DNA of 64,000 nucleotides from the human T2T-CHM13v2.0 reference genome, Homo sapiens, in contig CP068257.2 in assembly GCA_009914755.4 (NCBI GenBank), positions 10,176,001-10,240,000 of the forward strand, written 5' to 3'. Below, in pieces: positions 1-26,705 of the stretch (positions are counted from its first letter, which is position 1; the number at the start of each line of letters is the position of its first letter). The notes below the pieces were generated by a model, which made no database searches, was not told the DNA's origin, and was given only the letters and a program-made list of their open reading frames with translations. The translations under genes and the position numbers were made by a program.

Positions 1-2450
1 ACTTGCAGATCCTACAAAAAGATTTTCAGAACTGCTCTATCAAAAGAAAAGTTCAACTCTGAGAGATGAATGCACACAAAACAAAGAGGTTTTTGAGAAT
101 GCTTCTGTGTAGTTTTTCTGTGAAGTTATTTCCTTTTCCACAATAGGCCACAAAGAGCTCCAAATATCCCCTTGCAGATTCTACAAAAAGAGAGTTTCAA
201 AACTGCTCTATCAAAAGATAGGTTCAACTATGTGGTTTGAATGCACATATGAAAAAAGCAGTTTCTCAGAATGCTTCTGTGTAGTTTTTATGAGAAGATA
301 TTTCCTTTTCCCCAATAGGCCTCCAAGGGCTCCAAATATCCACTTGCAGATTCTATTAAAAGAGTGTTTCCAAACTGCTCAATATAATGAAAGTTTCAAT
401 ACTGTGAGATGAATGCTCACATCAAAAATAAGTTTCTGAGAATGCTTCTGTGTACTTTTTATGTGAAGATATTTCCTTTTCAACAATAGGCCTCAAAGAG
501 CTCCAATTATACACTTGCAGATTCTACAAAAAGAGTGTTTGAAAACTGCTCAATCAAATGAAATATTCACCTCTGTGAGATGAATGCACACATCACAAAG
601 AAGTTCCTCAGAATACTTCTGTGTAGTTTTTATGTGAGGATGTTTCCTTTTCCAACATTGGCTGCAAAGGGCTCCAATTATCCAGTTGCAGATACCACAA
701 AAAGAGAGTTTCCAAACTGCTCTATCAAAAGATAGGTTCAACTATGTGAGATGAATACACAAATCCCAAACAAGTTCCTCAGAATGCTTCTGTGTAGTTA
801 TTATGTGAAGTTATTTCCATTTCAACCATTGACTTCTAAGCTCTCCAAATATCCTCTTACATATTCTACAAAAAGAGCGTTTCAAAACTGTCCAATCAAA
901 AGAAATGTTCAACACTGGGAGATGAATGCACACATCTCAAAGAAGTTTCTCAGAATGCTTCTATCTGGTATTTATGTGAAGATATCTCCTTTTCCACCAT
1001 AGGCTTCAAAGAGCTTCAAATGTCCACTTGCAGATCCCACAAAAAGAGATTTTCAAAACTGCTCAATCAAAAGAAATGTTTCACACTGTGAGATAAATGA
1101 ACACATCACAAGGAAGTTTCTCAGATTGCTTCTGTCTAGATTTTATGTGAAGATATTTCCTTTTCCACCATACGCCTCAAGGTGCTCGAAATGTCAACTT
1201 GCAGATACTTCAAAAAGAGGATTTCCAAACTGGTCATTCAAAAGAAACCTTCAACTCTGAGATATGAATGCACACATCACAAAAAAGTTTCTCAGAATGC
1301 TTCTATCTGGTTTTCATGTGAAGATATTTCCTTTTTCACCATAGACTTCAAAGTGCTCCAAATGTCCGATTACAGATTCTACAAAAAGAGAGTTTCAAAC
1401 TGCTCAATCCAAACAAAGGTTTAATTATGTGAGATAAATGAACACCTCACAAAGAAGTTTCTCAGATTGCTTCTATCTAGATTTTATGTGAAGTTATTTC
1501 CTTTTCTACCATAGGCCGCAAAGAGCTCCAAATCTCCACTTGCAAATTCTACAAAAAGACTGTTTCCAAACTGCTCAATCAAAAGAAAGGTTGAACTCTG
1601 TGAGATGAACGCACACATCGCCAAGAACTTTGTCAGAATTCTTCTGTCTAGTTTTTATGTGAAGATATTACCTTTTCCAAAATAGGCCTCAAAAAGCTCC
1701 AAATGTCCACTTGCAGATACTACAAAAAGAGAGTTTCAATACTGCTCACTAAAAAAAAAAAAAGCTTTAACTCTGTGAGAAGAAGGAACACATCAGAAAG
1801 AAATTTCTCAGATTGCTTCTGTCTAGATTTTATATGAAGATATTTCCTTCCTACCATTGGCCGCAAAGCACTCCAAATGTCCACTTGCAGATTCTACAAA
1901 AAAAGATTTTCAAAACTGCCCAATCAAAAGGAAGGTTCAACGCCGTGAGTTGAACCCACCCATTACAAACAAGTTTCTCAAAATTCTTTTCTCTAGTTTT
2001 TAGGTGAAGATATTTCCTTTTCCACCTTTGGCCTCAAAGTGCTCAAAATGTCCACTTGCAGATTTTACGAAAAGAGTTTCAAAACTGCTCAATCAAAAGA
2101 AAGGTTTATCTCTGGGAGATGAATGCACACATAACAAAGGGGTTCCTCAGATTGCTACTGTCTAGATTTTATGTGAAGATATTTCCTTTTCTACCATAGG
2201 CCGCAAAGCGCTCCAAATGTCCACTTGTAGATTCTACAAAAAGAGTGTTTCCAAACTGCTCAATCAAAAGAAACGTTTACCTCCGTGAGATGAATGCACA
2301 AATCACAAAGAAGTTTCTCAGAAGTTTTCTGCCTAGTTTTTATGTGAAGATATTTCCTTTTCCACCACATGCCTCAAGGATCTCGAAACGTCCAATTGCA
2401 GATTCTTCAAAAAGAGTATTTCAAAACTCGTCCTTCAAAAGAAAGGTTCA
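1..2450 (-). repeat. Alpha satellite DNA, about 14 divergent about 171-bp monomers (monomeric/pericentromeric type), reverse-complement orientation relative to standard consensus
   Basis: The about 171-bp periodicity is visible directly. Each period carries the motifs 'tccaaatatccacttgcagattctacaaaaagag' (reverse complement of consensus 'CTGCAAGTGGATATTTGGA') and 'ttcctttt(c)caccataggcctcaaag'. Monomers differ from one another by many substitutions. Confidence 0.95.
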
Positions 2451-4158
2451 GCTCTCCCTCTCCCTCTCCCTCTCCTCATGGTCTCCCTCTCCCTCTCCCC
2501 ATGGTCTCCCTCTCCCTCTCTTTCCACTGTCTCCCTCTGATGTCGAGCCGAAGCTGGACTGTACTGCTGCCATCTCTGCTCACTGCAACCTCCCTGCCTG
2601 ATTCTCCTGTCTCAGCCTGCTGAGTGCCTGCAATTGCAGGCGTGCGCCACCACGTCTGACTGGTTTTTGTATTTTTTTGGTGGAGACGGGGTTTCGCTGT
2701 GTTGGCTGGGCTGGTCTCCAGCTCCTAACCGCGAGTGATCTGCCAGCCTCGGCCTCCCGAGGTGCTGGGATTGCAGATGGAGTCTCATTCACTCAGTGCT
2801 CAATGTTGCCCAGGCTGGAGTGCAGTGGCATGATCTCGGCTCGCTACAACCTCCACCTCCCAGCCACCAGCCTTGGCCTCCCAAAGTGCCGAGATTGCAG
2901 TCTCTGCCCAGCCGCCACCCCATCTGGGAAGTGAGGAGCATCTCTGCCTGGCCGCCCATCGTCTGGGATGTGTGGAGCCCCTCAGCCTGGCTGCCCAGTC
3001 TGGGAAGTGAAGAGCACCTCTTCCCAGTTGCCATCCCATCTAGGAAGTGAGGAGCGTCTCTGCACAGACACCCATCGTCTGAGATGTGGGGAGCGCCTCT
3101 GCCCCGCCACCCCATCTGGGATGTGAGGAGTGCCTCTGCCCAGCCACGACCCCGTCTGGGAGGTGAGGAGCGTTTCTGCCCGGCTGCCCCGTCTGAGAAA
3201 TGAGGAGCCCCTCTGCCCGGCAGCTGCCCCATCTGGGAAGTGAGGAGTGTCTCCGCCCGGCAGCCGCCCCGTCCAGGAGTGAGGTGGGGGGCAACCCCCA
3301 CCCGGCAAGCCACCCTGTCTGGGAGGAAGGTGGGGGGCAGCCCCCGCCCAGCCAGCCACCCCATCTGGGAGGAAGGTGGGGGGCAGCCCCCACCCGGCCA
3401 GCTGCCCCATCCGGGAGGAAGGTGGGGGGCAGCCCCCGCCCGGCCAGCCACCCCGGCAGGGAGGGAGGTGGGGAGCAGCCCATGCCCGGCCAGCCACCCC
3501 ATCCAGGAGGTGGGGGGCATCCCCCACCCGGCCAGCCACCCCATCCGGGAGGTGGGGGGCGCCTCTGCCCGGCCACCCCTTCTGGGAAGTGAGGAGCCCC
3601 TCTGCCCGGCCGCCACCCCGTCTGGGAGGTGTACCCAACAGCTCATTGAGAACAGGCCATGATGACGATGGTGGTTTGTCAAATAGAAAAGGGGGAAATG
3701 TGGGGAAAAGATAGAGAAATCAGATTGTTGCTGTGTCTGTGTAGAAAGAAGTAGACATAGACTCCATTTTGTTCTGTACTAAGAAAAATTCTTCTGCCCT
3801 GGGATGCTGTTGATCTGTGACCTTACCCCCAACCCAGTGCTCTCTGAAACATGTGCTGTGTCCACTCAGGGTTAAATGGATTAAGGGCAGTGCAAGATGT
3901 ACTTTGTTAAACAGATGCTTGAAGGCAGCATGCTCGTTAAGAGTCATCACCACTCCCTAATCTCAAGTACCCAGGGACACAAACACTGTGGAAGGCCTCA
4001 GGGTCCTCTGCCTAGGAAAACCAGAGACCTTTGTTCACTTGTTTATCTGCTGACCTTCCCTCCACTATTGTCCTATGACCCTGCCAAATCCCCCTCTGCG
4101 AGAAACACCCAAGAATGATCAATAAAAAAAAAAGAAAAAAAAACAACAAAAACAAAAA
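2451..4158 (+). mobile_element. SVA composite retrotransposon (hominoid-specific), about 1.7 kb. Parts: (CCCTCT)n hexamer region 2452-2545; antisense Alu-like region about 2546-2905; GC-rich VNTR about 2906-3640; SINE-R (HERV-K-derived) about 3641-4118; A-rich tail 4121-4158.
   Basis: The 5' end is 'ctctccctctccctctcc...'. Alu-antisense-like stretches follow ('ggtttcgctgtgttggctgggctggtctc', 'cccaggctggagtgcagtggc', 'gcctcccaaagtgc'). Then come repeated about 37-40-bp VNTR units 'gcctctgcccggccgccaccccgtctgggaagtgaggagc'. The SINE-R start 'gtacccaacagctcattgagaacaggccatgatgacgatggtggttt' is present. The element ends in 'aataaaaaaaaaagaaaaaaaaacaacaaaaacaaaaa'. Confidence 0.9.
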
Positions 4159-4366
4159 CTAGAAGAGTATAATTGGATGTTTGTAACACAAAGGATAATA
4201 AATACCTGAGGGAATGGATAGTCTATTTTCCATGCTGTGATTTTTACACCCTGCATGCCTGTATCAAAACATCTCATGTATCCATAAATATATATACCTA
4301 CTAAATACCCACCAAAATTAAAAATTAAAAAATAAATAAAGTATACAAAATGAAAGGCAAAAAAAA
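4159..4366 (+). other. Non-satellite about 200-bp segment between the SVA poly-A and alpha satellite, ending in its own short A-run (4359-4366). Candidate SVA 3' transduced sequence; its AT-rich end resembles an old L1 3' end, but origin is unassigned.
   Basis: The sequence 'ctagaagagtataattggatgtttgtaacac...cctgcatgcctgtatcaaaacatctcatgtatccataaatatatatacctactaaatacccaccaaaattaaaaa...aaaggcaaaaaaaa' has neither 171-bp periodicity nor SVA homology. It sits inside the interval bracketed by the target-site duplication. Confidence 0.5.
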
Positions 4367-7300
4367 GAAAGGTTCAACTCTGAGATATGACTGCACACAT
4401 CACAAAGAAGTTTCTCAGAATACTTCTATCTAGTTTTCCTGTGAAGATATTTCCTTTTCCACCATAGACCGCAAAGCACTCCAAATGTCCACTTGCAGAT
4501 TCTACAAAAACAGAGTTTCAAACTGCTCAATCAAAAGAAAGTTTTAACTCTGTGAAGTGAATGCACAAATCACAATAAAAGTTTCTCAGATTGTTTCTGT
4601 CTAGATTTTATGTGAAGATATTTCCTTTTGTACCAAAGGATGCAAAGCCCTTCAAATGTCCACTTGCAGATTCTACAAAAGGAGAGTTTTCAAACTGCTC
4701 AATCAAAAGAAATTTTCAACTCTGTGAGATAAACACAGACATCACAATGAAGTTTCTCAGAATTCTTCTATCTAGTTTTTATGTGAGGATATTTCCTTTT
4801 CCACCATAGGCCTCAAAGCGCTCCAAAAGTCCACTTGCAGATTCTACAAAAAGAGAATTTTAAGCTACTCAATCAAAAGAAAGTTTTAACTCTGTGAGAT
4901 GAATGCACACATCAAAAAGAAGTTTCTCAGATTGCTTCTGTCTAGATTTTGTGTGAAGATATTTCCTTTTGTACCAAAGGATGCAAAGCCCTTCAAATGT
5001 CCACTTGCAGATTCTACAAAAAGAGAGTTTTCAAACTGCTCAATCAAAAGAAATTTTCAACGCTGTGAGATAAACACAGACATCACAATGAAGTTTCTCA
5101 GATTTCTTCTGTCTAGTTTTTATGTGAGGATATTTCCTTTTCCACCATAGGCCTCAAAGCACTCCAAAAGTCCACTTGCAGATTCTACAAAAAGAGAATT
5201 TTAAACTACTCAATCAAAAGAAAATTTTTAATTCTGTGAGATGAATGCACACATCAAAAATAAGTTTCTCAGATTGCTTCTGTCTAGATTTTATGTGAAG
5301 ATACTTCCTTTTCTACCACAGCCCTCAAAGCGCTGCAAATGTCCACTTGTAGATCCTACAAAAAGTGTTTCCAAACTGCTTAATCAAAAGAAAGGTTAAA
5401 CTCTGTAAGATGAACGCACGTATCACAAAGAAATTTCTCAGAATTCTTCTGTGTAGTTTTTATGTGAAGACGTTTCCTATTCCACCATAGGCCTTAAAGC
5501 GCTAAAAGTGTCCAATTGCAGGTTCTACAAAAAGAGAGTTTCAAAACTGTTCAATCAAAACAAAGGTTTAACTCTTTGATATGAATGCACACATCACAAA
5601 GAAATTTCTCAGATTGCTTCTGTCGAGATTTTATGTGATGGTATTTCATTTTATAACATAGGACGCAAAGCGCTCCAAATATCTACTTGCAGATTTTACA
5701 TAAAGAGTTTTTCCAAACTGCTCACTCAAAATAAAGGTTCACCTTTGTGTGATGAACGTACACATCACAATGAAGTTTCTCAGAAATCTTCAGTCTAGTT
5801 TTGATGTGAAGATATTTCCTTTTCCACCATTGTCCTCAAAGTGCTCCAAATGTCCACTATCAGATTCTACAAAAAAGAGAGTTTCAAACTGTTCAATCAC
5901 AGGAAAGGTTTAACACTGTGAGATGAATACACAAATCAAAAAGAAGTTTCTCAGTTTGCTTCTCTCTAGATTTTATGTGAAGATATTTCTTTCACTACCA
6001 TAGGCCGCAAAGCACTCCAAATGTCCAATTGCAGATTCTACAAATAGAGTGTTTAAAACTGCTCAATCAAAAGAAAGGTTCAACCCTGTGAGATGAATGC
6101 CCACCTTACAAAAAAGTTTCTCAGAATTCTTCTGTCTTGTTTTATGTGAAGATATTTCCTTTTCTACCATAGGCCTCAAAGCTCCCAAAATGTCCACTTG
6201 TAGATTCTACAAAAAGAGTATTTCAAAACTGCTCAATGGAAAAATCTCCAAATCTGTGACATGCATGGACACATCACAAAGAATTTTCTCAGAATGCTTC
6301 TATCTAGTTTTTATGTGAAGATATTTCCTTTTCCAAAACAGGCCTCAAATTTCTCCCAATATCCACTTGCAGATTCTCAAAAAGAATGTTTCAAAACTGC
6401 TCAATCATAAGAAAATTTCAACTCTGTCACGTGAATGCACACATGTCAAAGGAGTTGCTCAGAATGCTTCTGTCTAGTTTTTATGTGAAGATATTTTCTT
6501 TTCCACTTTAGACAGTATAGCACTCCAAATATCCACTTGCATATTCTACAAAAATAGTGTTTCCAAACTGCTCAACCAAAAGAAAGGTTCGAGCCTGTGA
6601 GATGAGTGCACACATCATAAAGAAGATTCTCAGAATGCTTCTATCTAGTTTTTATGTGAAGATATTTCCTTTTCCACCATAGGCCTCAAAGTGCTCCAAA
6701 TGACCAATTGCAGATTCTACAAATGAGTTTTTCAAAACTGCTCAATCAAAAGAAAGGTTCAACTCTCTAAGATGAATTCACATATCACAAAGAATTTTCT
6801 CAGAATGATTCTGTCTAGTTTTTATGTGAAGATATTTCCTTTTCCACCATAGTCCACAAAGCGCTCCAAATGTCCTATTGCAGATTCTACAAGAGTGTTT
6901 CAAAACAGCTCAATCAAAAGTAAGGTTAAATTCGGTGAGATGAATGCACACATCACAAAGAAGGTTCTCAGAATGCTTCTGTTTAGCACTTAAGGGAAGA
7001 TATTTTCTTTTCCACCATAGGCCTCAAAACACTCCAAATGTCCTCTTGCAAATTCTACAAAACGTGTTTCAAAACTGATCAATCAAAAGAAAGTTCCAAC
7101 TCTGTCAGATGAATGCACACATCCCAAATAAGTTTGTCAGAATGATTCGGTATAGTTTTTATGTGAAAATGTTTCCTTTTCCACCATAGCCTGCAAAGTG
7201 CTCCAAATGTCCACTTGCAGATTCTACAAAAAGAGTGTTTCAGAACTGCTCAATCGAAAGTAAGGTTCAAATCTGGAAGATAGATGCGCACATCCAAAAG

Positions 7301-8243
7301 AAGTTGGTCAGAATGATTCTATCTAGTTTTAATGTGAAGATGTTTCCTTTTCCACACTAGGCCTCACAGTGCTCAAAATGTCCACTTGCAGATTCTACAA
7401 AAAGAGTGTTTTGAAACTGCTCAATCAAAATAAAATTTCAACACTGTGAGGTGAATGCACACATCACAAAGAAGTTTCGCACACATCACAAAGAAGTTTC
7501 TCAGAATGCTTCTGTTAAGTTTTTATGTGAAGATATTTCCTTTTCCACCGTAGGCCTGAACACTCTCCAAATATCTACTTGCCGATTCTACAAAAAGAGT
7601 GTTTCAAAACTGCTCAATGAAAAGAAACTTTCAAATCTGTGAGATGAATTCACACATCACAAAGAAGTTTGTCAGAATGTTTCTGTATAGTTTTTATATG
7701 AAGATACTTCCTTTTCCACCATAGGCTTCAAAGTGCTCCAAATTTCCACATGCAGATTGTACAAAGTCTTTCAAAGCCATTCAATCAAATGAAAGGTTCA
7801 AACCTGTGAGATGAATGCACACATCACAAAGAAATTTGTCAGAATGCTTCTGTCTAGCTTTTTTGAAGATATTTCCTTTTCCATCATATGATTCAAAGAG
7901 CTCCAAATGTCCACTTGCAGATAATACAAAAAGGGAGTTTCAAAGCTGCTGAATCAAAAGAAAGGTTCAATTCTTTGAGATGAATGCACATATCACAAAG
8001 AAGTTTGCAGAATGCTTCTGTCTAGTTTTCATGTGAAGATTTTTTTTCAACATATGCCTCAAATCGCTCCAAATGTCCACTTGCAGATCCTACAAAACGA
8101 GTGTTTCCAAACTGCTTAATAAAAAGAAATGTTCAACTCTGTGAGAAGACCTCACACATCACAAAGAAGTTTCTCAGACTGCTTCTGTCTAGGTTTTATG
8201 TAAAGATATTTCCTTTTCCACCATAGGCCTCAAAGTGCTCCAA
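4367..8243 (-). repeat. Alpha satellite DNA, about 22 monomers, continuation of the array interrupted by the SVA. It contains a locally duplicated 340-bp dimer (4561-4900 and 4900-5240).
   Basis: Same about 171-bp monomer motifs as block 1. ORFs 4591..4809 and 4899..5150 translate to near-identical peptides, which confirms a 340-bp duplicated dimer. The last monomer is truncated at 'ccataggcctcaaagtgctccaa' (about 8243). Confidence 0.95.
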
Positions 8244-11200
8244 TCCACTCCACTGCATTCCATTCTGTCCCATTCCATTCCACTCCATTCCACTCCACCT
8301 CACTCCACTGCACTCCGCCCCACTCCATTCCATTCCATTACATTACATTCCACTCCATTCCATTACATTCATTTCTTTCGACAGGATCTCACTCTGTAAC
8401 CCAGGCTGTAATGCAGTGGCACAATCTCAGCTCACATTACATTTCACCTTTCCATTCCATTCCATTGCATTCCATTCCTTTCCATTCTATTCCATTCCAC
8501 TCCACTCCAAACCACTCTACTCGACTCCACTCCACTCCATTCCATTCCATCCCATTGCATTCAACTCCACTCCACTCCACTCCTTTCTTTTGACAGTTAT
8601 CTCACCCTGTCAACCAGCCTGGAGTTAAGTGGCACAATCTCAGCTCACATTTCATTTCACCATTCCATTCCAATCCATTCCACGACATTCCATTCCATTG
8701 CATTTCATTCAATTCCATTCCACTCCATTCCATTCCATTCCACTCCACTCCACTCCACTCCACTCCATTCCAATCCATCACACTCCCTTTCACTACATTG
8801 CATTCCACTCCACTCCACTCCCTTCTATTCCATCCCATTGCATTAAACTCCACTCCACTACACTACACTGCACTACACTACACTACACTCCACTTCACTA
8901 CACTACACTACACTACACTACACTACACTACACTACACTACACTACACTACACTACACTACACTACACTCCCTTCCATTCCATTCCATTCCAGACCACTC
9001 CATTCCATTCCATTCCTTTCTTTCAATAGGATATCACTCTGTAACCCAGGCTGGAGTGCAGTGGAGCAATCTCAGGAGACATTTCACTTCACCATTACAT
9101 TGCATTGCATTCCATTCCATTCATTTCCATTCCATAACATTCCACTGCACTCCACTCCACTCCACTACACTCCACTCCACTTCAATCCACTCAACTCCAT
9201 TCCAATCCATTTCATTCCATTCCATCCACTCCATTCCACTCCATTCCACTCCAATCCACTCCACTTCAGTCCAGTCCATTCCACTCCATTCCACTCCAAT
9301 CCATCCCATCACATTCCACTCCATTCCTCTCCACTCCACTCCACTTCACTCCACTCCATTCAACTCCATTCCATTCCATTCCATTCCATTCCATTCCATT
9401 CCATTCCATTCCATTCCATTCCTTTCTTTCAACAGGATCTCACTCTGTCACCCAGGCTGGAGTGCAGCGGCACTATCTCAGCTCACATTTCATTTCACCA
9501 TTTCATTCCATTCCATTCCATTCCATTCCATTCCATTCCACTCCATTCCATTCAATTCCATTCCATTCTGTTCCATTCCACTTCATTCCAGTCCACCCTT
9601 CTACACTCCAAGCCACTCCACTCCATTCCATTGAATTCCATTGTATTCCACTCCATTCCACTCCACTCCACTCCACTCTAATCAACTCTACTCCACTCCA
9701 TTCCATTCCATTCCATTCCATTCCACTCCATTCCATTCCTTTCCATTCCATTACATCCCATTCCATTACATCCCATTCCATTCCACCCCATTCCATTCCA
9801 CAGCATTCCACTCCACTCCACTAAACTCCACTCCAATCCACTCCATTCAATTCCATTCAATTCTACTCCATTCCATTCCACTCTATTCCATTCCATTCCT
9901 TTCTTTTGACAGGATCTCACTCTGTCACCCAGAGTGGAGTGCAGTAACACAATTTCAGTTCACATTTCATTTCACCATTCCATTCCATTCCATTCCATTC
10001 CATTCCATCCCATTCCATTCCATTCCATTCCTTTCCATTCCATTCCATTCCATCCCATTCTATTAAACTCCACTCCACTCCACGCCATTCCATTCCATCC
10101 CATTCCATTCAACTCCCTTCCACTCCAGTCCACTCCACACCACTCTACTCCATTCCATTCAACTCCCATCCACTCCAGTCCGCTCCACACCACTCCACTC
10201 CATTCCAACCCATTCCATTCCACTCCTTTCCAATCCATTTCACTCCACTACCCTCCACTCCATTCATTTCCACTCCAAACTATTCCATTCCTCTCCACTC
10301 CACTTCACTCCACCCCACTACTCTCCACTCCATTCCATTCCATTCCACTCCATTCCATTCCATTCATTTTCTTCGAAAGAGTCTCACTCTGTCACTGAGG
10401 CTGGAGTGCAGTGGCACAATCTCACATCACATTTCATTTCACCATTCCATTGCATTCAATTCCGTTCTATTTAACTCCAATCCACTCCACTCCACTCCAC
10501 TCCACGCCATTCCATTCCATTACATTCCAGTCCATTCCATTCCATTCCTGTCCACTCCACTCCGCTAACATTCCATTCAATTCCATCCCATCCCATTCAA
10601 CTCCATTCCATTCCTCTCCACTCCACTCCACTGCACTCCACTCCACATCACTCATCTCCATTCCGTTCCATTCCATTCCACTCCATTCCATTGCATTCCT
10701 TTCTTTCGACAGCATCTCACTCTGCTACCCAGACGGGAGTGCAGTGCCACAATCACAGCTCACATTTAATTTCACCATTCCATTCCATTCCATTCCATTC
10801 CATTGCATTCCAGTGCACTCCACTCCATTCCATTCTACTCCACTCCATTCCATTCCATTCCATTCCTCTCCATTCCATTCCATACCATTCCATTCCATTC
10901 CACTCCACTCCACTCCATTCCAATCCATCCCATTATATTCCACTCCATTCCACATCACTCCACTCCATTCCAAACCATTACATTCCTTTCCATCCCATTC
11001 CATTCCACTCGATTCCACTCCAATCCACTCCATTCCACTCCATTCCATTCCACTACACTCCACTCCATTCCACTCCATTCCATTCCACTACACTCCACTC
11101 CATTCAATTCTATTCCTTTCCATTCCACTCCATTCCATTCCATCACTTTCTTTTGACAGGGTCTCACTCTGTCACACAGGCTGGAGTACAGTGGCACAAT

Positions 11201-14200: not shown

Positions 14201-17200
14201 TCCATTCCATCCCATTCCACTCAACTCCCTTCCACTTCAGTCCACTCCAAACCACTGCACTCCATTCCATTCTATCCCTTTCCATTCCACTCCATTCCAT
14301 TCCACCACATTCCATTCCATTCCATTACACTCCATTCCATTCCATTCCACTACATTCCATTCCATTCCATTCCATTACACTCCATTCCGTTCCATTCCTT
14401 TCTTTCCACAGGATCTCACCCTGTCTCCCAGGCTGGAGTACAGTGGCAAAATCCCAGCTGACATTTCATTTCACCAATCCCTTCCACTGTATTCCATTCC
14501 ATTGCATTCCACTCCATTCCATTCAATTCCATTCCACTGCACTCCACACCACTCCACTCCATTCCATCCGGTTCCATTAGACTCCATTCCACTCAACTCC
14601 ACTCCATTTCACTCTACTGCATTCCATTACATTCCGTTATACTCCAATCAATTCCATTTCTTTGTTTTGAGAGGATCTCACTCTGTCACCCAGGCTGGAG
14701 AGCAGTGACAAAGATTCAGTTCACATTTCATTTCACCATTCCATTCCATTCCATTCCTTTCCATTCCATTCCATTAAATTCCATTCCACTCCATTCTATT
14801 CCACTCCACTCCACTCCACTCCAATTCACTCCATTCAATCCCATTCCATTCCACTCCATTCCTCTCCACTCCATTCCATTCCATTCCATCCATTCCATAC
14901 CATTCCATTCCCCTCCACTCCACTCCACTTTAGTCCACTCCACTCCACTCCACTCCACTCCATTCCACTCCATTCAATTCCATTGCACTCCATTCCGTTC
15001 CATTCCTTTCTTTTGACAGGATCTCACTCTCTCTCCCAGGTTGGAGTGCAGTGGCACAATCTCAGCTCACATTTCGTTTCACCATTACATTCCACTGCAT
15101 TCCAATCCATTCCATTTCATTACATTCCATTCCACTCCACTCCCCTATATACATTCCACTCCATTACATTCCATTACATTCCACTCCACTCCACTCCATT
15201 CCACTCTATGCCACTCCACTCCATGTCATTCCATCCCATTACATTCCACTCCATTCCACTCCACTCCACTCCACTCCACTCCACTCCATTCTATTCCATT
15301 CCATTCCATTCCATTCCATTCCATTCCGTTCCATTCTAATCCATTCCATTTTATTCCTTTCTTTGACAGGATCTCACTCTGTCACCCAGGCTGGAGTGCA
15401 GTAACACAATTGCAGTTCACATTTCATTTCACCATTCCATTCCATTCCTTTCATTTCCATTCCATTCCATTCTATTCCACTCCACTCCACTCCACTCCAC
15501 TCCATTCCATTCCATCCCGTTCCATTCAACTCTCTTCCTCTCCATTCCACTCCACACCACTCTAATCCATTCCATTCAACTCCCTTGCACTCCAGTACAC
15601 TCCACACCACTCAACTCCATTCCATTCAATCCCATTCAATTCCATTCCATTCCACTATACTTCACTCCACTACCCTCCTCTCCATTCAATTCCACTAGAA
15701 ACCATTCCATTCCACTCCACTCTACTCCTCTCCACTCCACTCCATTCCATTACATTCGAGTTCATTCCTTTCAATTCCAGTCCACTCCACTCCACTACAT
15801 TCCATTCAATTCCATCCCATTCCAATCCATTTCATTCCTCTCCATTCTACTGCACTCCACTCCACTCGTCTCCATTCCGTTCCATTTCATTGCACTCCAT
15901 TCCATTCCATTTCTTTCTTTTGTCAGCATCTCACTGTGTCACCCAGGCTGGAGTGCAGTGGCACAATCACAGCTCACATTTAATTTCACCATTCCATTCC
16001 ATTCCGTTCCATTCCATTGCACTCCAGTGCACTCCACTCTATTCCACTCCACTCCATTCCATTCCATTCCACTCCACTCCAGTCCTCTCCATTCCAATCC
16101 ATCCCTTTACATTCCACTCCATTCCACATCACTCAACGCCACTCCACTCCAAACCATTACATTCCTTTCCATCCCATTCCATTCCACTCCACTCCACTCC
16201 ACCCCACTCCTCTCCATTCAATTCAATTCCTTTCCATTCCACTCCATTCCATTCCATCCCTTTCTTTTGACAGGGTCTCACTGTCTCACACAGGCTGGAG
16301 TACAGTGGCACAATCTGAGCTCACATTTCATTTCACCTTTCCATTCCATTCCACTCCATTCCACTCTAGTCCACTCAACTCCACTCCACTTCATTCCATT
16401 CCATTCCACTTCACTCCACTTTTCTCCTCTCCTCTCCATTCCATCCCATTCCATTCCACTCAACACCACTGCACTCCACTCCACTCCGATCCTTTCCATT
16501 GCATCACATTGCATTCCACTCCTTTCCGCTCCACTCCACTCCACTCCACTACATTCCATTCCATTCAATTCCAGTACACTCCATAACATTACTTTCCTTT
16601 CTTTCAACAGGATCTCACTCTGTCACCAAGGCTGGAGTTTAGTGGCACAATCTCAGCTCACATTTCATTTCACCATTCCGTTCCATTCCATTCCATTCCA
16701 TTCCATTCCATTCCTACTCCATTTCATCCACTCCACTCCACTCCACTCCATTTCACTCCATTCGACTCCATTCAACTCCACTCCATTCCACTCCAATCCA
16801 CTCCACTCCACTCGATTGTATTCCACTCCATTCCATTTCATTCCAGTCCATACCATTCCATTCCATTCCACTCCATTCCATTCCACTCCACTCCATTAGA
16901 CTCAGAGCACTCCACTCCATTTGACTCCACTCCACTCCATTCCACTCCATTCCTTCCACTCCACTGCATTCCATTTCACTCCATTCCACTCCATTCCACT
17001 CTATTCCACTCCACTCCATTCCACTCCAATCCATTCCACTCCACTCCATTTCATTCCACTCCATTCCATTCCACTCCACTCCATTCCATTCCATTATACT
17101 CCATTTCGTTCCATTCCTTTATTTCGACTGGATCTTACTCTGTCACACATACTGGAGTGCAGTGGCACAATCTTAGCTCACATTTAACTTCACCATTCCA

Positions 17201-19359
17201 TTCCATTTCATTCTATTCCATTCCATTGCATTCCACTCCACTTCACTCCACTCCATTCCACTCCACTCCTCTCCACTCCACGACTCTACACTCCACTCCG
17301 TTCCATTTCATTCCATTCCATTCCAATGCATTCCGATCCACTCCACTCAACTCCACTCCACTCCATTCCATTCCGTTCCATTTTGTTCCATTCTCTTCCA
17401 TTCCACTCCAATCCTTTCCACTCCCCTCCTTTCCACTGCACTCCATTTCACTCTACTGCCCTCCATTCCACTCCAACGCACTCCAACCCACTACACTCCA
17501 CTCCATTACATTCCAATGCACTTCATCCCATTCCATTCAATTCCATTCTGGTCCATTCCACTCCATTCCACTCCATTCCACAACACTTCATTCCACTCCA
17601 ATCCATTCCACTCCACTCCAATCCATTCCACTCCATTCCATTCATTTCCACTCCATTCCTTTCCATTCCACTCCACTCCATTCCACTCCATTCCTCTCCA
17701 CTCCATTCCACTCCACTCCATTCCACTCCACCCTACTCCAATCCACTCCATTCCATTCCAGTCCACTCCATTCCATTCCATTCTACTTCGTTCCTTTCCA
17801 TTCCATTATTTCGACTGGATCTTCCTCTGTCACCGAGACAGGAGTGCAGTGGCACAATCTTAGCTCACATTTCATTTCCCCTTTCCATTCCATTGCATTC
17901 CATTCCATTCCATGTCTTTCCATTCCACTCCACTCCACTCCACTCTACTCCATTCCGTTCTGATCCATTCCATTCCATTGCATTCCGATCCATTCCATTC
18001 CATTCCTCTCCACTCCATTCCATTCCACTCAATTTCATTCTATTCCACTCAACTCCACTGCAGTCTTCTCCACTTCACTCCACTCCATTCCACTACAATC
18101 AACTAAACTCCACTCTACTCCACTCCATTCCATTCCATTCCATTCCATGCAACTACACTCTGATCATCTCCACTCAACTCCATTCCACTCCACTCACTCC
18201 GTTTCATTCCGTTCCATTCCAGTTCTTTCCGTTACTTTCCATTCCACTCCACTCCAGTCAACTCCACTCTATTTCACTCCATTCCACTCCTATCGACTCC
18301 ACTCCAATCCAGTACACTTCACTCCATTACATTCCACTCCATTCTATTCCATTCCATTCCATTCCACTCCACTCCACTCCACTCCATTCCATTCCACTCC
18401 ATTCCACTCCATTCCAAACCACGCCACTCCACTCCACTCCATTGTCATTCCATTACATTACATTCCAATCCATTCCACTCCACGCCACTCCACCCTATTC
18501 CATTCCATTCCATTTCATTGTACTCCATTCTATTCCATTCCTTTCTTTCGACAGGATCTCACTCTGTCACACAGGCTGGAGTGCAGTAACACAATTTTAG
18601 TTCACATTTCATTTCACCATTCCATTCCATTCCATTCCTTTCCATTCCATTCCATTCTATTCCATTTTTTTCCACTCCACTCCACTCCCCTCCACTCCAT
18701 TCCATTCCATCCCATTAAATTCAACTCCCTTCCACTCCAGTCCACTCCACACCACTCCACTCCATTCCATTAAACTCCCTACCACTTCTGTCCACTCCAC
18801 ACCACTACACTCCATTCCAGTCCATCCCATTCCATTCCACTCCATTCCACTCCACTCCATTCCATTCAATTCCGTTCCTTTCCATTACACACCATTCCAT
18901 TCCATCCCTTTCTTTCGACAGGGTCTCACTGTCTCACACAGGCTGGAGCACAGTGGCAAAATCTGAGCTCACATCTCATTTCTCCTTTCCATTCCATTCC
19001 ACTCCATTCCACTCCAGTCTACTCAACTCCACTCCACTCCATTCCATTCCACTCCACTTTTCTCCTCTCCTCTGCATTCCATCCCATTCCATTCCACTCC
19101 ATTAAACTGCACTCTACTCCCCTCCAATCCTTTCCATTGAATCACATTGCATTCCACTCCATTCCACTGAACTCTACTCCACTCCACTCCACTACATTCC
19201 ATTCCATTCAATTCCAGTACACTCCATAACATTACTTTCCTATGTTTTGACAGGATCTCACTCTGTCACCCAGGCTGGAGTGCAGTGGCACAATCTCAGC
19301 TCACATTTCATTTCACCATTCAGTTCCATTCCATTCCATTCCATTCCATTGCATTTCAT
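8244..19359 (+). repeat. Pentameric (CCATT)n/(GGAAT)n satellite, HSat3-like, block A. It is punctuated about every 175-730 bp (mean about 410 bp) by a conserved Alu-derived fragment.
   Basis: Degenerate ccatt/ccact/ccagt pentamers dominate. About 27 copies of 'tt(t)c(t)tttgacaggatctcactctgtcacccaggctggagtgcagtggcacaatctcagctcacatttcatttcacc' are present, e.g. at about 8379, 8590, 9030, 9430, 9906, 10375, 10710, 11155 ... 19250. The fragment matches the antisense 3' end of the Alu right arm. Confidence 0.93.
8857..8970 (+). repeat. (CACTA)n variant pentamer microsatellite expansion (about 14 pure units plus degenerate flanks) inside HSat3
   Basis: 'cactacactacactacactacactacactacactacactacactacactacactacac' is read directly at 8881-8968. 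Confidence 0.9.
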
Positions 19360-20427
19360 TCCACTCCACTCCACTCCATTTCACTCCATTCGACTCCATC
19401 ACACTCCACTCCACACCACTCCAATCCACTCGACTCCACTCCATTGCTATCCAGTCCATTCCATTTCATTCCAACCCAATCCATTCCATTCCATTCCACT
19501 CCATTCCACTCCATTCCACTCCATTCCATTCCACTCCAATCCACTCCACTCAGTGTACCCCACTCCATTCGACTCCACTCCACTCCATTCCACTCCATTC
19601 CTTCCATTCCACTCCATTACGTTTCACTCCATTCCACTCCATTCCACTCTATTCCACTCCACTCCATTCCATTCCACTCCATTCCATTTCATTCCCCTCC
19701 ATTCCATTCCACTCCACTCCCTTCCATTCCATTCTACTCCATTTCCTTCCATTCTTTTATTTTGACTGGATCTCACTCTGTTACACATACTGGAGTGCAG
19801 TGGCACAATCAGTTCACATTTCATTTCACCATTCCATTCCATTTCATTCTATTCCATTCCATTCCACTCCACGCCACTACACTACACTCAACTCCACTCC
19901 ATTCCACTCTACTCCATTCCGTTCTGTTCCATTCCATTCTGTTCCATTACATTGCATTGCATTCCATTCCATTCCATTCCATTCCTCTCGACTCCATTCC
20001 ACTCCACTCAATTCCACCCCATTCCACTCAACTCCACTGCAGTCCTCTCCACTCCACTCCATTCCACTACAGTACACTAAACTCCACTCTACTCCACTCA
20101 ATTTCCATCCATTCCATTCCATTCCATGCAACTGCACTCCGATCAACTGCACTCAACTCCACTCCACTCACTCCATTTCATTCGGTTCTGTTGCAGCTGT
20201 TCCGTTCCTTTCAATTCCACTCAATTGCATTCCACTCCACTCCAGTCCGCTCCACTCCATTTTCTCCATTCCACTCCTATCCACTCCACTCCACTCCAAT
20301 CCACTCCACTCCTCTCCATTACATTCCACTCCATTCTTCTCCATTCCTCTCCATTCCATTCCATTCCACTCCATTCCCCTCCGCTCCACTCCATTCCATT
20401 CCACTCCACTCAATTCCACTCCACTAA

Positions 20428-20998
<571 letters not shown>

Positions 20999-23900
20999 GC
21001 AGTGGCACAATCTTAGCACACATTTCATTTCACCATTCCATTCCATTACACTCCACTCAATTCCATTCCATTCCACCACGCTCCACTACACTCTACTTCC
21101 CTCCACTCCATGCCACTCCACTCCATTCCACTCGACTCCTTTCCATTCCATTGCATTCAATTCCATTCTATTCCATTCCATTCCAGTGCACTCCTATCCA
21201 CTCCACTCAACTCCAATACACACCACTCCACTCCTCTCTGTTCCATTCCTTTCCATTCCATTCCGTTCTCTTCCATGCCATTTCTTTCCATTCCATTCCA
21301 TTCCACTCCACTCCATTCCATTCCACTCCACTCCATTCCATTCCACTCCATTCCATTCCATTCCACTCCACTCCACTCCATTCCATTTCACTCCACTCCA
21401 CTCCATTCCATTCCTTTCCATTGCATTCCATTAAATTCCACACCACTCCGATCCACTCCACTCAACTCCACTCCAATCCACTCCACTCCAATCTGTTCCT
21501 TTCCGTTCCATTCCATTCCTTTCAATTCCATTCCTTTCCATTCCATTCCAATGCACTTCAGTCCATTCCATTCCACTCCACTGCATTTCTCTCCATTCCA
21601 CTCCATTAAAATCCTCTCTAATCCACTCCACACCATTGCACTCCTTTCCACCCCACTCCAGTCCATTCCACTCCAATCCATTCCATTCCACTCCACTCAT
21701 CTCCACTCCACCCCATTCCATTCCCTCCACCCCATTCCATTCTACTTCTTTCCATTCCTCTCCAGTCCATTCCACTCCAATCCACTTCATTCCATTTCAC
21801 TCCACTCCATTCCATTCCGTTACATTGCAATCCATTCCATGCCATTCCACTCCATTCCATTCCACTGTCCTCCACTCCACTCCACACTACTCCATTACAT
21901 TCCTTTGCATTCCACTAGACTCCATTCCTTTCCATTCCATTCCATTTCACTGCACTCGGATACAATCCACTGAACTCCACTGTACTCCACTCCACTCCAT
22001 TCCGTTCCTTTCCATACCTTTGCGTTCCATTTCATTCCATACCGTTCCATTCCATTCCATTCCACTCCACTCCATTCCATTCCAATTCAATCCACTCCAC
22101 TCTACTCCACTCCACTCCACTGTAACCCACATCACTCTTTTCCATTCCATTCCATTCCACTGCACTACAATCCACTCCATTCAGCTCCACTCTAATCCAT
22201 TCCACTCCACTCCATTCCATTCAATTCCGTTGCGTTCTGTTCCGTTCCATTCCATTCCACTCCATTCTATTCCACTACAATCCATACCACTCCACTACAT
22301 TTCTTTCATTTCCATTCCATTACAGTCCACTCGACTCCACTCCAGTACACTCCATTCAATTCCATTCCACTCCATTCTATTCCAGTCCACTCCATTCCTT
22401 TTCATTCCGTTCCAATCCATTCCACTCCATTACACTCCACTCCACTACACTTCATTCCACTCCACTCCAAACCATTACACTCCACTCCACTCCAATCCAT
22501 TCTACTCCACTACACTCCATTCCATTCCATCCCATTCCACTCTACCCCACACCACTCCACTCCACCCCACACCACTCCACTCCATTCCATTCCACTCCAC
22601 TCCATTCCATTGCAATCCATTTCATTCCATTCCATTCCACTCCACTCTGAACCACTCCACTCAATTCCACTGCATTCCACTCCACTCCACTTAGTTCTGT
22701 TCTGTTTCTTCCCATTCCATTCCTTTACATTCCATTCCATTCCTTTCCACTCCACTGTGAACCACTTCACTTAACTCCACTTCATTCCTGTCCAATCCAC
22801 TCAGTTCCGTTCTGTTTCTTTCTTTCCGTTCCATTCCATTCCATTCCATTTCGTTCCATTCCATTCCAATCCCCTTCATTCCATTGCAGTCCACATCACT
22901 CCACTACACTCCATTCCATTCCACTCCACACCATTCCACTCCACTCCATTGCATTCCACTCCACTACAGTCCATTCCATTCCACTCTACTCCACACCACT
23001 CCACTACACTCCATTCCATTCCATTCCATTCCATTCCATTCCATTCCATTCCATTCCATTCCATTCCATTCCAATCCACTCCATTCCATTCCAATCCATT
23101 CCATTCCTTTCTATTCCATTCCACTATGAACCTCTCCACTCAACTCCACTGCATTCCAGTCCACTCCACTCAGGTCCTTTCTGTTTCTTTCCATTCCATT
23201 CCATTCCATTCCATTCCATTCCATTCCGTTCCATTTCATTCCAATCCTCTCCATTCCATTACAGTCCATTCAACTCCACTCCACTCCACTCAAATCCGCT
23301 TCACTCCACTCCACTCCGCTCCACTCAATTTCATTCCACTCCATTCCATTCCATTACACTCCATTACATTACATTCCATTGCTCTCCATACCCCTCCATT
23401 CCACTCCACTCCATTCTACTCCACTCATCTCCACTCCACTCCATTCCACTCCATTCCATTCCATTCCATTCCATTCCATTCCATTCCATTCCACTCCATT
23501 CCACTCCATTCCATTCCACTCCATTCCATTCCATTCCATTCCATTCCATTCCATTCCATTCCACTCCATTCCATTCCATTCCACTCCATTCCATTCCACT
23601 CCATGCCATTCCACTCCACTCCTTTCCTTCCCATTCTACTCCATTGCATTCCAGTCCTTTATTTCAAATGGATCTCACTCTGTCACCCAGAAAGGAGTGC
23701 AGTGGCACAATTTTAGCTCACCTTTCATTTCACCATTCCATTCCATTCCATTCCCTTCCATTCCATTCCATTCTACTCCACTCCATTCCATTCCACTTCA
23801 CTCCATTCCACTCTACTCCCTTCCATTCCATTCCACTCCACCCCATTCCTTTCCATCCATTTGCATTCCTTTCCATTCCACTGCACTCCAATCCACTCCA

Positions 23901-25016
23901 CTCAACTCCTCTCCACTGCTCTCCACTCCGTTCCTTTCTTTTCCATTCCATTTCATTTCATTACTTTCCATTCCGTTACATTCCATTTCATTCCACTCCA
24001 CTCCACTCCATTCCATTTCACACCATTCCACTCAACTCCCCACCACTCCACTACACTCTACTTCACTCCACTCCATTCCTTTCCATTCCATTCCATTCCA
24101 CTGCACTCGGTTTCACTCCACTCAACTCCACTCCATTCGACTCCACTCCACTCTGTTCCATTCCATTCCATTCTGTTTCATTCCATTCCACTCCTTTCCA
24201 TTCCTCTCCCCTCCATATCACTCCACTCCATTTCCCTCCATTCCACTCCTTTTTACTCGACTCCTCTCCAATACACTTTACTCCATTCCATTCCAATCCA
24301 TTCCTTTCCAGTCCACTCCATTCCATTCCATTCCATTCCCCTCCATTCCACTCCATTCCACACCACTCCGTTCCACTCCCTTACACTCCACTCCACTCCA
24401 TTTCATTCCACTCCACTCCATTCTATTCCATTCCATTCCTCTCCACTACATTCCATTCAAATCCATCAAATTCCTTTCCATTCCACTGCACTGCGACCCA
24501 CTCCTCTCAACTCCACTCCACTCCACTCCATTCCATTCCGTTCCACTCCATTCTGTTCCATTCAATTACATACCACTCCACTCCTTCCATTCCACTCCAT
24601 TCCACTCCACTCTACACAACTTCTCACAACTCCAGTCAATTCCACTCAATTCCACTCACTGCACTCCATTCCAGTCCATTTCATTCGATTCAAGTGCACT
24701 CCGATCCACTCCAGTGAACTCCTCTCCACTCCACCACACTCCTTTCCATTCTCTTCCATTCTGTTCCATTCCATTCCAATCCATTCAATTCCACTCCACT
24801 CCATTCCACTGCACTCCATTTCACAACATTCCACTCCATTCCATTGCACTCCACTGCATTCCACTCCATTCCACTCCACTCCATTCCCTCCCTTTCCACT
24901 GCATTCCATTCCATTCCATTAAACTCCACTCCACTCCGTTCCACTCCACTCCATTTCACTCCATTTCACTCCATTCCACTCCACTCCACTCCATTCCACT
25001 CCATTCCATTTCACTC

Positions 25017-25378
25017 CAACCCATTCCATTTCATTTTACTCCATACCTTTCCATTCCTTTATTTTGACTGGATCTAACTTTGTCACCTAGACTGTAGTGC
25101 AGTTGCAGAATCTTAGCTCACATTTCATTTCACTATTCCATTCCATTCCATTCCATTCCATTCCATTCCACTCCACTCCACTCCATTCCATTTCACTCCA
25201 ACCCATTCCATTTCATTTTACTCCATACCTTTCCATTCCTTTATTTTGACTGGATCTAACTTTGTCACCCAGACTGTAGTGCAGTTGCAGAATCTTAGCT
25301 CACATTTCATTTCACTATTCCATTCCATTCCATTCCATTCCACTCCACTCCACTCCACTCCACCCCACTCCATTCCAC
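25017..25378 (+). repeat. Local 2x about 181-bp tandem duplication inside the HSat3 unit (includes the Alu-fragment motif). It is mirrored at 52674-53035 in copy 2.
   Basis: 'aacccattccatttcattttactccatacctttccattcctttattttgactggatctaactttgtcacc(t/c)agactgtagtgcagttgcagaatcttagctcacatttcatttcactattcc' occurs twice consecutively. Confidence 0.85.
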
Positions 25379-26705
25379 TCCACTCCACTCCACTTCACTC
25401 CACTCCATTGCATTCCACTCCACTCCACTCTTTTCCATTCCATTCCATTTAATTCCATTCCATTGCACTCCCATCATCTCCACTCAGCTCCACTCCACTC
25501 CACTCCACTCCCTTCTGTTCCGTTCCATTCCATTCCATTCCATTCCATTCCATTCCTTTCCATTCCATTCCACTCCATTCAATTCCATTCCACTCCATTC
25601 TGCTCCACTCCATTCCACTCCACTCCACTCCACTCCACTCCGTTCCATTCCATTCCTTTCCTTTCCACTACAGTCCGATCCCCTCCACTCAACTCCACTC
25701 CATTGCACTACACTCCACTCTGTTCCATTCCATTCCGTTCTGTTCAGTTCCGTTCCGTTCCGTTCCGTTGCATTCCTCTCCATTCCATTCCACTCCACTC
25801 CATTTAACTCCACTCCTTTTCACTCCATTCTAATCCATTCGTTTCCATTCCACACCACTCCTTTCCATTCCATTCCACTAAATTCCATTCCATTCCTTTC
25901 CAAACCACTCCACTTCATTCCACTCCACTCCACTCCATTCCTCTTCAATCCATTCCACTCTACTCCACTCCATTCCACGCTATTCCATTCCGTTCCACTC
26001 CATTCCATTTCATTCCATTCCACTCCATTCCACTCGATTCGACTCCACTCCATTCCAATGCACTCCACTCCATTCCACTCCATTCCATTCCACTTCACTC
26101 CATTACATTCCACTTCACTCCATTCCATTCCATCCAACTACATGCCATTCCGTTCTCTTATTTAGACTGAATCTCACTCTGTCACCCAGACTGGAGTGCA
26201 GTGGCAGAATCTTAGATCACATTTCATTTAACCATTCCATTCCAATCCATTCCATTCGACTCCATTCCATTCCATTCCACACCACTCCATTCCACTCCAC
26301 TCCACTCCATTCCATTCCACTGCACTCCATTCCATTCCTTTCCATTCCATTCCACTGCACTCAGATCAGCTCCACTCAACTCCACTGCACTCCATTCCAC
26401 TCCATTCCTATCTGTTGCATTCCTTTCCATTCCATTCCATTCCATTCAATTCCACTCCACTCCATTCCATTCTTCTCCATTCTACTCCATTCCACTCCTC
26501 TCCACTGCACTCCACTCCACTTCATTCCATTCCATTCCATTCCACTCCATTCCATTCCATTCCACTCCATTCCACTCCATTCTACTCCATTCCTTTCCAT
26601 TCTATTCCTGTCCTTTCCACTACACTCCATTCCACTCCACTCTACTCCATTCCCCTCCATTCCATTCCACTCCAATCCATTCCATTACATTCCACTGCAT
26701 TCCAT

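What the first reader, a model, noticed from the sequence alone, without database searches (positions are those of the whole stretch)
2437..4376. SVA insertion with probable 3' transduction inside alpha satellite
The alpha-satellite monomer is interrupted at '...aaaagaaaggttca|gctctccctctcc' (2450/2451). It resumes at 'ggcaaaaaaaa|gaaaggttcaactctgagat' (4367). The direct repeat 'AAAAGAAAGGTTCA' (10-14 bp) brackets the SVA, whose own A-tail ends about 4158. It also brackets an extra about 200 bp of non-SVA, non-satellite sequence (4159-4358) that ends in a second short A-run. This architecture (element, polyA, extra sequence, polyA, TSD) is the classic signature of L1-mediated 3' transduction by SVA read-through. 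SVA elements are hominoid-restricted, so this is a young insertion into an alpha-satellite monomer.
Basis: partly seen in the sequence, partly recalled or inferred. Interest (0 to 1): 0.55.

Follow-up and report, generated by a model that had tools for sequence, protein, structure and literature searches.

The report
SVA retrotransposon carrying flanking L1 piece
A full-length SVA jumping element, dragging along about 200 bases of its old neighbourhood (the tail end of an ancient L1 element), landed in a centromeric alpha-satellite repeat; this is a textbook event, and the only twist is that the whole block was later copied several times.

Summary
Window 2451-4158 is a complete SVA with all its modules. 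It is followed by 200 bp of foreign sequence (4159-4358) and a short pure A run. One exact 14-bp direct repeat, AAAAGAAAGGTTCA (2437-2450 and 4363-4376), brackets the whole insert.

The repeat is a true target-site duplication. Removing the insert plus one copy restores a 170-bp monomer that aligns without gaps to uninterrupted neighbours. Keeping both copies gives 184 bp.

The extra 200 bp matches neither satellite nor SVA. It looks like the 3' end of an ancient L1 (L1PB/L1MA type, identified from memory plus one real homologue at 82%). AATAAA signals lie 18-22 nt before the final A run. This fits 3' transduction by read-through of the SVA's own AATAAA.

The source locus was not found, so transduction remains the best inference, not proven.

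Four metagenome contigs, probably primate contamination, carry the same 3' junction, and one also carries the 5' junction. They are only 96-97% identical to the window and form three distinct versions. The insertion is therefore old and predates several duplications, or speciation. It is not a recent or unique event.

Verdict: ordinary, a known kind of event, low interest.

The parts
2437..2450 (+). 5' copy of the target-site duplication, AAAAGAAAGGTTCA. It is preceded by TC, so the inferred bottom-strand nick is 5'-TTTT/GA-3', one base off the L1 endonuclease consensus TTTT/AA.
   Evidence: Exact 14-bp match to 4363-4376. The phase and length test and the gapless empty-site alignment show a true duplication. 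The same junction is present in contig L004.
2451..2451 (+). Extra G between the TSD and the first SVA base. It is not part of the monomer, where the next base is A. I read it as an untemplated G from reverse transcription of the cap.
   Evidence: Sequence; also present in L004. Raiz et al. [quoted passage not shown]
2452..2528 (+). SVA (CCCTCT)n hexamer region, which marks a full-length 5' end.
   Evidence: TRF finds period 6, unit CTCTCC, at 2452-2520, plus 23-25-bp rows reaching 2538.
2529..2900 (+). SVA Alu-like region, made of antisense Alu fragments.
   Evidence: Weak minus-strand Metazoa_SRP hits at 2548-2660 and 2681-2797 agree.
2902..3631 (+). SVA VNTR: GC-rich tandem units of about 37-46 bp, roughly 18 copies.
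   Evidence: TRF rows with periods 37, 46, 77 and 116 across 2902-3631. GC content 0.71.
3632..4126 (+). SVA SINE-R module, derived from the HERV-K LTR with the internal deletion. It ends in the SVA's own AATAAA at 4121-4126.
   Evidence: Identity to a recollected young-SVA SINE-R is 95.2% over 516 bp. AATAAA at 4121.
4127..4158 (+). Internal impure A tract: the continuation of the A run that starts in the AATAAA hexamer, AAAAAAAGAAAAAAAAACAACAAAAACAAAAA. I read it as the source element's genomic A tail, copied as part of the read-through transcript.
   Evidence: Sequence. The interruptions ...ACAACAAAAACAAAAA are shared by all four versions of the insertion, so they predate the duplications.
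4159..4358 (+). Transduced non-SVA, non-satellite segment. Positions 4163-4332 are homologous to the 3' end of an old L1 (L1PB/L1MA-like). Positions 4333-4358 are the degenerate L1 tail or flank, carrying overlapping AATAAA signals at 4331-4336 and 4335-4340. The segment ends 18 nt after the second hexamer.
   Evidence: No similarity to the rest of the window (best E = 1.5). 82% identity over 173 bp to a dispersed-repeat copy at the end of L005. Poly(A) signal positions.
4359..4362 (+). Terminal pure A tail. It is 4 A's if the TSD is 14 bp, and up to 8 A's (4359-4366) if the TSD is 10 bp.
   Evidence: Sequence. The run before GAAAGG is 7-8 A's in the paralogous contigs.
4363..4376 (+). 3' copy of the target-site duplication, AAAAGAAAGGTTCA. 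The alpha-satellite monomer resumes in phase after it.
   Evidence: The same junction is present in L001, L002, L003 and L004.

Best explanation
One L1-mediated retrotransposition inserted a full-length SVA transcript that had read through its own poly(A) signal.

Proposed sequence of events:
1. A source SVA elsewhere in the genome sat immediately upstream of the 3' end of an ancient L1.
2. Transcription skipped the SVA's AATAAA (4121).
3. Transcription continued through the source's genomic A tail and about 200 nt of flank.
4. The transcript was cleaved and polyadenylated about 18 nt after the AATAAA doublet at 4331-4340.
5. L1 ORF2p nicked the A-rich stretch of an alpha-satellite monomer (bottom strand TTTT/GA) and primed reverse transcription on the poly(A).
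6. The whole RNA was copied up to the cap, which left an extra G.
7. Second-strand cleavage 14 bp away produced the TSD AAAAGAAAGGTTCA.
8. Later, the alpha-satellite/HSat junction block containing the insertion was duplicated several times (or inherited by several species), and the copies diverged by 1-3%.

Shown here: the anatomy, the true TSD, the target-site motif, the signal spacing, the foreign nature of 4159-4358, and the multiple diverged copies with identical junctions.

Inferred: read-through at a source locus, mobilisation by L1 proteins, and the duplication history.
For: - Complete SVA module order.
- One exact 14-bp TSD brackets SVA plus extra segment. The empty site reconstructs to a 170-bp monomer and aligns gaplessly over 357/357 columns to intact monomers.
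- The top-strand target TC|AAAA is one base off the L1 EN consensus. TSD length, the untemplated G and 3' transduction are listed hallmarks of L1-mediated SVA mobilisation in PMC3287187.
- The extra segment resembles neither SVA nor satellite. It is homologous to a dispersed repeat copy in L005 that I recognise as an old L1 3' end. That family predates SVA, so it must have been carried in.
- AATAAA at 4331 and 4335, with the final A run starting 18 nt after the second hexamer.
- The internal A tract is impure, and its three C interruptions are shared by all four versions. This is expected if it was templated from an aged genomic tail. The terminal A run is pure.
- SVA de novo insertions often land in or next to L1 3' ends, which makes such a source context plausible.
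- About 10% of polymorphic SVA insertions carry 3' transductions, 748 of 7554. T2T-CHM13 has 55 high-confidence cases.
- Four independent contigs share the 3' junction and one shares the 5' junction, which rules out an assembly artefact.
Against: - No source locus (an SVA followed by this L1 fragment continuing past ...GAAAGGC) was found. The only external matches to the segment are copies of the same insertion. Other routes returned nothing.
- The terminal A tail is very short, 4-8 A's.
- A second AATAAA at 4197 inside the segment was also skipped.
Confidence: 0.85

Rival explanations
1. Template-switch chimera. During one target-primed reverse transcription, L1 reverse transcriptase first copied the 3' end of some polyadenylated cellular RNA that contained an old L1 fragment. 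It then jumped to the poly(A) end of an SVA RNA. This would give SVA-poly(A)-L1 fragment-poly(A) inside a single TSD with no read-through source locus.
For: The final architecture is identical to that of a 3' transduction: one TSD and two A tracts. No source locus was found.
Against: From general knowledge, such chimeras are much rarer than SVA 3' transductions, which make up about 10% of insertions. The internal A tract carries three C interruptions shared by all diverged copies. That suggests a templated, already degenerate genomic tail, not a fresh pure poly(A).
Confidence: 0.07
2. Two independent insertions. Either an L1 3' fragment retrotransposed into the A tail of a resident SVA, or the SVA landed beside a pre-existing L1 fragment in the satellite.
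For: A possible 6-bp repeat CAAAAA (4153-4158 and 4358-4363) flanks the extra segment. Retrotransposons do target A-rich tails.
Against: - The 14-bp TSD brackets both pieces together, not the SVA alone.
- The CAAAAA repeat is low-complexity sequence in an A-rich context.
- The fragment is of the old L1PB/L1MA 3'-end type, not the L1PA type (recollected references, plus L005). From general knowledge, that type was extinct before SVA arose.
- An independent L1 would leave at most 8 A's to serve as both its tail and its TSD.
Confidence: 0.04
3. DNA-level capture or assembly artefact. In this reading the SVA plus flank was pasted into the satellite by repair or segmental duplication, or by misassembly, and not by retrotransposition.
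For: The region is repeat-rich and has clearly undergone later duplications.
Against: The precise 14-bp TSD in monomer phase, the terminal A run, the L1 EN-like target and the intact full-length 5' end with an extra G are all retrotransposition hallmarks. Four independent contigs from different projects reproduce the 3' junction, and one of them also the 5' junction.
Confidence: 0.02

Closest known systems
SVA 3' transduction events (Xing et al. 2006 and Damert et al. 2009, cited from memory; catalogued in T2T-CHM13 by Hoyt et al., 10.1101/2021.07.12.451456)
   Same: A full-length SVA, its own A tract, downstream flank ending at a downstream AATAAA, a second A tail, and a single L1-type TSD. 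The mechanism described, a skipped SVA poly(A) signal, fits the anatomy exactly.
   Different: The source element was not identified. The target is a divergent alpha-satellite monomer next to an HSat array. The insertion lies in sequence that was later duplicated. [quoted passage not shown]
H10_1 SVA_F1 source element with 3'-transduced AluSp (PMC3287187)
   Same: Read-through of the weak SINE-R terminator into a neighbouring retroelement, with termination at a signal just beyond it.
   Different: Here the transduced retroelement is an ancient L1 3' end, not an Alu. The SVA is an older type without the MAST2 5' end. Only one insertion event is seen, later copied at the DNA level, with no family of retrotransposed offspring.
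AluSx3-WaluSat transduction followed by segmental duplication onto several chromosomes (Hoyt et al.)
   Same: A retroelement-mediated transduction event whose product was subsequently spread by segmental duplication.
   Different: There the transduced sequence itself expanded into satellite arrays. Here the transduced piece stays single-copy within each block and acts only as a passive marker.

Membership tests
SVA retrotransposon (canonical, full length) | 5' (CCCTCT)n hexamer repeat | tested here: met
   TRF finds period 6, unit CTCTCC, at 2452-2520.
SVA retrotransposon (canonical, full length) | Alu-like region made of antisense Alu fragments | tested here: met
Weak minus-strand Metazoa_SRP hits agree.
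SVA retrotransposon (canonical, full length) | GC-rich VNTR of about 35-50-bp units | tested here: met
   TRF at 2902-3631 with periods 37 and 46. GC content 0.71.
SVA retrotransposon (canonical, full length) | SINE-R module derived from the HERV-K LTR with an internal deletion, ending in AATAAA plus an A tail | tested here: met
AATAAA at 4121 followed by an A tract.
SVA retrotransposon (canonical, full length) | Subfamily assignment (A-F) by diagnostic positions | tested here: inconclusive
   No Dfam or Repbase consensus was available. At two non-CpG sites (GATTGTT; GAC-TCCATTTTG) the element keeps the HERV-K-like state, not the state I recall for SVA_D/E/F. This suggests an older subfamily (A-C), but it rests on recollected references.
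L1-mediated (TPRT) insertion | Target-site duplication of 4-20 bp that is a real duplication of target DNA | tested here: met
   Exact 14 bp. The excised monomer is 170 bp, against 184 bp if both copies are kept. The empty-site alignment is gapless.
L1-mediated (TPRT) insertion | Insertion at a 5'-TTTT/AA-3'-like endonuclease site | tested here: met
   The bottom strand reads 5'-TTTT/GA-3' (top strand TC|AAAA at 2435-2440), one base off consensus. Consensus from PMC3287187.
L1-mediated (TPRT) insertion | 3' poly(A) tail abutting the 3' TSD | tested here: met
   4-8 pure A's at 4359-4366. Short, as expected for an old insertion.
3' transduction | Extra non-element sequence between the element's own A tract and a second A tail, all within one TSD | tested here: met
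   4159-4358 lies between the A tracts at 4127-4158 and 4359-4366, inside the single TSD pair.
3' transduction | The transduced segment ends 10-30 nt downstream of a poly(A) signal | tested here: met
   AATAAA at 4331-4336 and 4335-4340. The A run starts at 4359, which is 18 nt after the second hexamer.
3' transduction | An identifiable source locus: a progenitor element directly followed by the same sequence | not testable with these tools
   No primate genome was available. The metagenome scan returned only copies of the same insertion. Genome and viral contig scans, ORF look-ups, the protein search, and plasmid and phage blastn all returned nothing useful.
LINE-1 3' end (identity of the transduced piece) | Homology to the 3' UTR end of an L1 subfamily consensus | tested here: inconclusive
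   82% over 173 bp to a repeat copy at the end of L005, which has no L1 ORF2 upstream because the contig is a bacterial/primate-like chimera. RepeatMasker/Dfam is needed.

The most novel reading that the evidence does not exclude
The SVA plus L1-tag insertion is a single datable event shared by at least four diverged copies of one alpha-satellite/HSat junction block. If those copies are paralogues within one genome, for example on different pericentromeres or acrocentric arms, the insertion gives a lower time bound and a phylogenetic marker for the spread of that satellite block between chromosomes. Transduction catalogues that discard events in segmental duplications would have missed it.
Probability: 0.45. 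Interest if true: 0.3.

Novelty: already known. Interest (0 to 1): 0.15.

Why it matters
This matters little beyond annotation. SVA 3' transductions are common: about 10% of polymorphic SVA insertions carry one, and dozens are catalogued in T2T-CHM13. TE insertions in divergent pericentromeric alpha satellite are expected.

The practical value is as a marker. The unique junctions (satellite|SVA and L1-tag|satellite) identify one ancestral event. They can be used to count, map and date copies of this alpha-satellite/HSat junction block in complete ape genomes. They also serve as unique anchors for read mapping in an otherwise repetitive region.

Tried and rejected
Searches for the source locus or sibling insertions:
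- A 21-mer from the extra segment found nothing in genome contigs.
- The same 21-mer in metagenome contigs found 4 contigs, all the same insertion.
- Two viral-contig scans found nothing.
- Exact look-ups of the two ORFs overlapping the segment found nothing on record.
- A protein search with the 43-aa ORF found no candidates.
- blastn against plasmids and phages found nothing.

Attempt to prove L1 identity through coding context:
- The degenerate L1 3'-end pattern found L005 and L006.
- L005 is bacterial sequence up to about 4905, followed by only about 170 bp of the repeat, so there is no ORF2 upstream.
- L006 is only a 26-bp chance-level match.

Other checks:
- The Rfam scan gave only sub-threshold hits. 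The two minus-strand SRP hits fit the Alu-like region; the rest (snoR125, IMES-2, mir-2944, snoZ163) I take as noise.
- I considered that the 14-bp repeat was merely conserved monomer sequence. The phase test rejected this.
- I considered an independent L1 insertion, template switching, and an artefact (see the rival explanations).
- I considered that the four contigs are alleles of one locus. I rejected this because 1-3.3% divergence is far above allelic levels (general knowledge). A different ape species as their origin cannot be excluded.
Full report
**1. Observation**

The window opens with alpha satellite. TRF finds a 171-bp period at 1-2455 and 4363-8243, with a 341-bp dimeric periodicity on the right side. 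From 8239 to the end of the window there is a (CCATT)n HSat2/3-type array.

The monomer is broken at 2450/2451 and resumes at 4367. The flanking repeat AAAAGAAAGGTTCA is exact for 14 bp (2437-2450 = 4363-4376) and fails at the 15th base. This 14-mer recurs in other monomers, so identity alone proves nothing. I therefore tested phase.

- The CAAAAG anchors lie at 2094, 2265 and 2436, then at 4532.
- Removing 2451-4376 restores a 170-bp spacing.
- Keeping both copies gives 184 bp.
- The reconstructed empty site aligns over 357/357 columns without a gap (87.1%) to intact monomers at 1068-1424.

The repeat is a true target-site duplication.

**2. Anatomy of the insert**

- 2451: a G that does not belong to the monomer, where the next base is A.
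- 2452-2528: (CCCTCT)n.
- 2902-3631: GC-rich VNTR with 37-46-bp units.
This reproduces the internal LTR deletion that defines SINE-R. The module ends at the LTR poly(A) signal, AATAAA at 4121.
- 4127-4158: an impure A tract, (A)7 G (A)9 C AA C AAAAA C AAAAA, continuing the A run that begins in the AATAAA hexamer.

This is a complete, full-length SVA. CpG observed/expected is 0.12-0.37 across its modules. Many consensus CpGs read TG or CA, which indicates an old, methylated copy. At two non-CpG sites the SINE-R keeps the HERV-K-like state, not the one I recall for SVA_D/E/F. That suggests an older subfamily (A-C), but it rests on recollected references and needs RepeatMasker.

**3. The extra 200 bp (4159-4358)**

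The segment has no similarity to the rest of the window; the best hit has E = 1.5. A degenerate motif from it found a real relative in a contaminated Bacillus MAG contig (L005). The match is 82% over 173 bp, covering window 4163-4332 and ending in an A-rich tail. L005 is bacterial up to about 4905, so it gives no L1 ORF2 context.

It gives no hit to my recollection of the L1HS 3' end. I therefore read 4163-4332 as the extreme 3' end of an ancient L1, and 4333-4358 as its degenerate tail or flank.

Two overlapping AATAAA hexamers lie at 4331 and 4335. The terminal A run starts 18 nt after the second, which is the normal distance for cleavage and polyadenylation. From general knowledge, L1 families with this 3' end stopped moving tens of millions of years before SVA arose. 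The fragment therefore cannot have inserted into an SVA tail by itself. It must have been carried in.

**4. Mechanism**

The target reads TC|AAAA on the top strand, which is 5'-TTTT/GA-3' on the bottom strand. That is one base off the L1 endonuclease consensus. Raiz et al. 2012 (PMC3287187) list the following as hallmarks of L1-mediated SVA mobilisation, and all are present here:

- a TSD of 4-20 bp;
- a poly(A) end;
- an untemplated 5' G;
- 3' transduction.

The same paper notes that de novo SVA insertions often land in or beside L1 3' ends. That makes a source SVA sitting just upstream of an L1 tail plausible.

The internal A tract carries three C interruptions shared by every diverged copy of the insertion. 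This fits a tract templated from an aged genomic tail better than a fresh poly(A), and so favours read-through over template switching.

SVA 3' transductions are common. Chu et al. 2023 report 748 among 7554 polymorphic insertions (PMC10681720). Hoyt et al. report 55 high-confidence events in T2T-CHM13.

**5. An unexpected addition: the insertion is not unique**

A 21-mer from the extra segment hit four metagenome contigs. All four contain the same SINE-R end, the same extra segment and the same junction into ...GAAAGGTTCAACTCTGAGATATGACTGC. L004 also carries the same 5' junction, TTCAAAAGAAAGATTCA|GCTCTCCCTCT.

- They are only 96.7-97.3% identical to the window.
- They fall into three versions: L001 = L003, L002, and L004. 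Apart from L001 and L003, which are identical, the contigs differ from one another by 1.1-3.2%.
- Non-CpG divergence from the window is 1.8-2.4%.
- L003 stays collinear with the window from 4088 to 8499, across the alpha-satellite/HSat boundary, apart from one missing 342-bp dimer.

So one ancestral insertion now exists in at least four diverged copies of a block of at least 4.4 kb. Either the block was segmentally duplicated after the insertion, or some copies come from other ape species.

At about 1e-9 substitutions per site per year, 2% non-CpG divergence means roughly 10 million years. This is a rough figure from general knowledge and is rate-dependent.

None of the contigs is the source locus. 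[quoted passage not shown] This instance may therefore be uncatalogued.

**6. Rivals**

- Template switching gives the same final architecture and cannot be excluded without the source locus. It is rarer and fits the impure shared internal tail less well (0.07).
- Two independent insertions are contradicted by the single TSD enclosing both pieces and by the age of the L1 type (0.04).
- DNA-level capture or misassembly is contradicted by the TPRT hallmarks and by four independent contigs (0.02).

**7. Verdict**

This is an ordinary, well-understood kind of event: an old full-length SVA with a roughly 200-bp 3' transduction consisting of an ancient L1 3' end, inserted in a divergent alpha-satellite monomer and later duplicated with its surroundings. 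Interest is low. Its main use is as a unique marker for tracing this pericentromeric block.

Noticed in passing
window 19333-36348 versus 46990-64000: The HSat (CCATT)n array contains a large direct duplication with a period of about 27.66 kb. Identity is 98.2-99.9% across its segments, at least 99.7% from about 19.9 kb on. The offset shifts from 27657 to 27677, back to 27657, then to 27652, so there are small indels. The second copy runs off the end of the window.
   Followed up: partly
It appears twice because it lies inside the 27.7-kb duplication.
   Followed up: partly
window about 8387-63391, more than 40 sites (for example 9438-9486, 15008-15070, 26729-26777, 26886-26934): Short minus-strand Alu 3' fragments (Alu positions about 224-288, 45-65 bp, 75-90% identity) are scattered through the HSat array. 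[quoted passage not shown]
   Followed up: partly
window 8238/8239: Abrupt junction from divergent, dimeric alpha satellite to the HSat pentamer array. The junction is conserved in contig L003 at 96-100% identity.
   Followed up: partly
window about 4900-5250 versus L003: The window has one extra 342-bp alpha-satellite dimer relative to the paralogous contig L003, consistent with unequal crossing-over after the block was duplicated.
   Followed up: partly
L002 921-3093 (beyond window about 4850): Contig L002 follows the window at 92-99% identity per 100-column block up to about 4850, then drops to about 78%. Either this paralogue has a different downstream monomer arrangement, or the short-read contig is chimeric within alpha satellite.
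   Followed up: no
L004 1-451, 442-1323, 1312-1417: This metagenome contig is an inverted chimera of three pieces of the same locus, joined at roughly 10-bp overlaps. It looks like an amplification or assembly artefact, but it still preserves both insertion junctions.
   Followed up: partly
L005 4909-5078: A contig of a 'Bacillus sp.' MAG (JAIMAD010000345.1) ends in about 170 bp of a primate-type L1 3' end with an A-rich tail. The preceding sequence is bacterial-looking, with ORFs and a terminator-like hairpin. This is probably host contamination or a chimeric contig in a public genome.
   Followed up: partly
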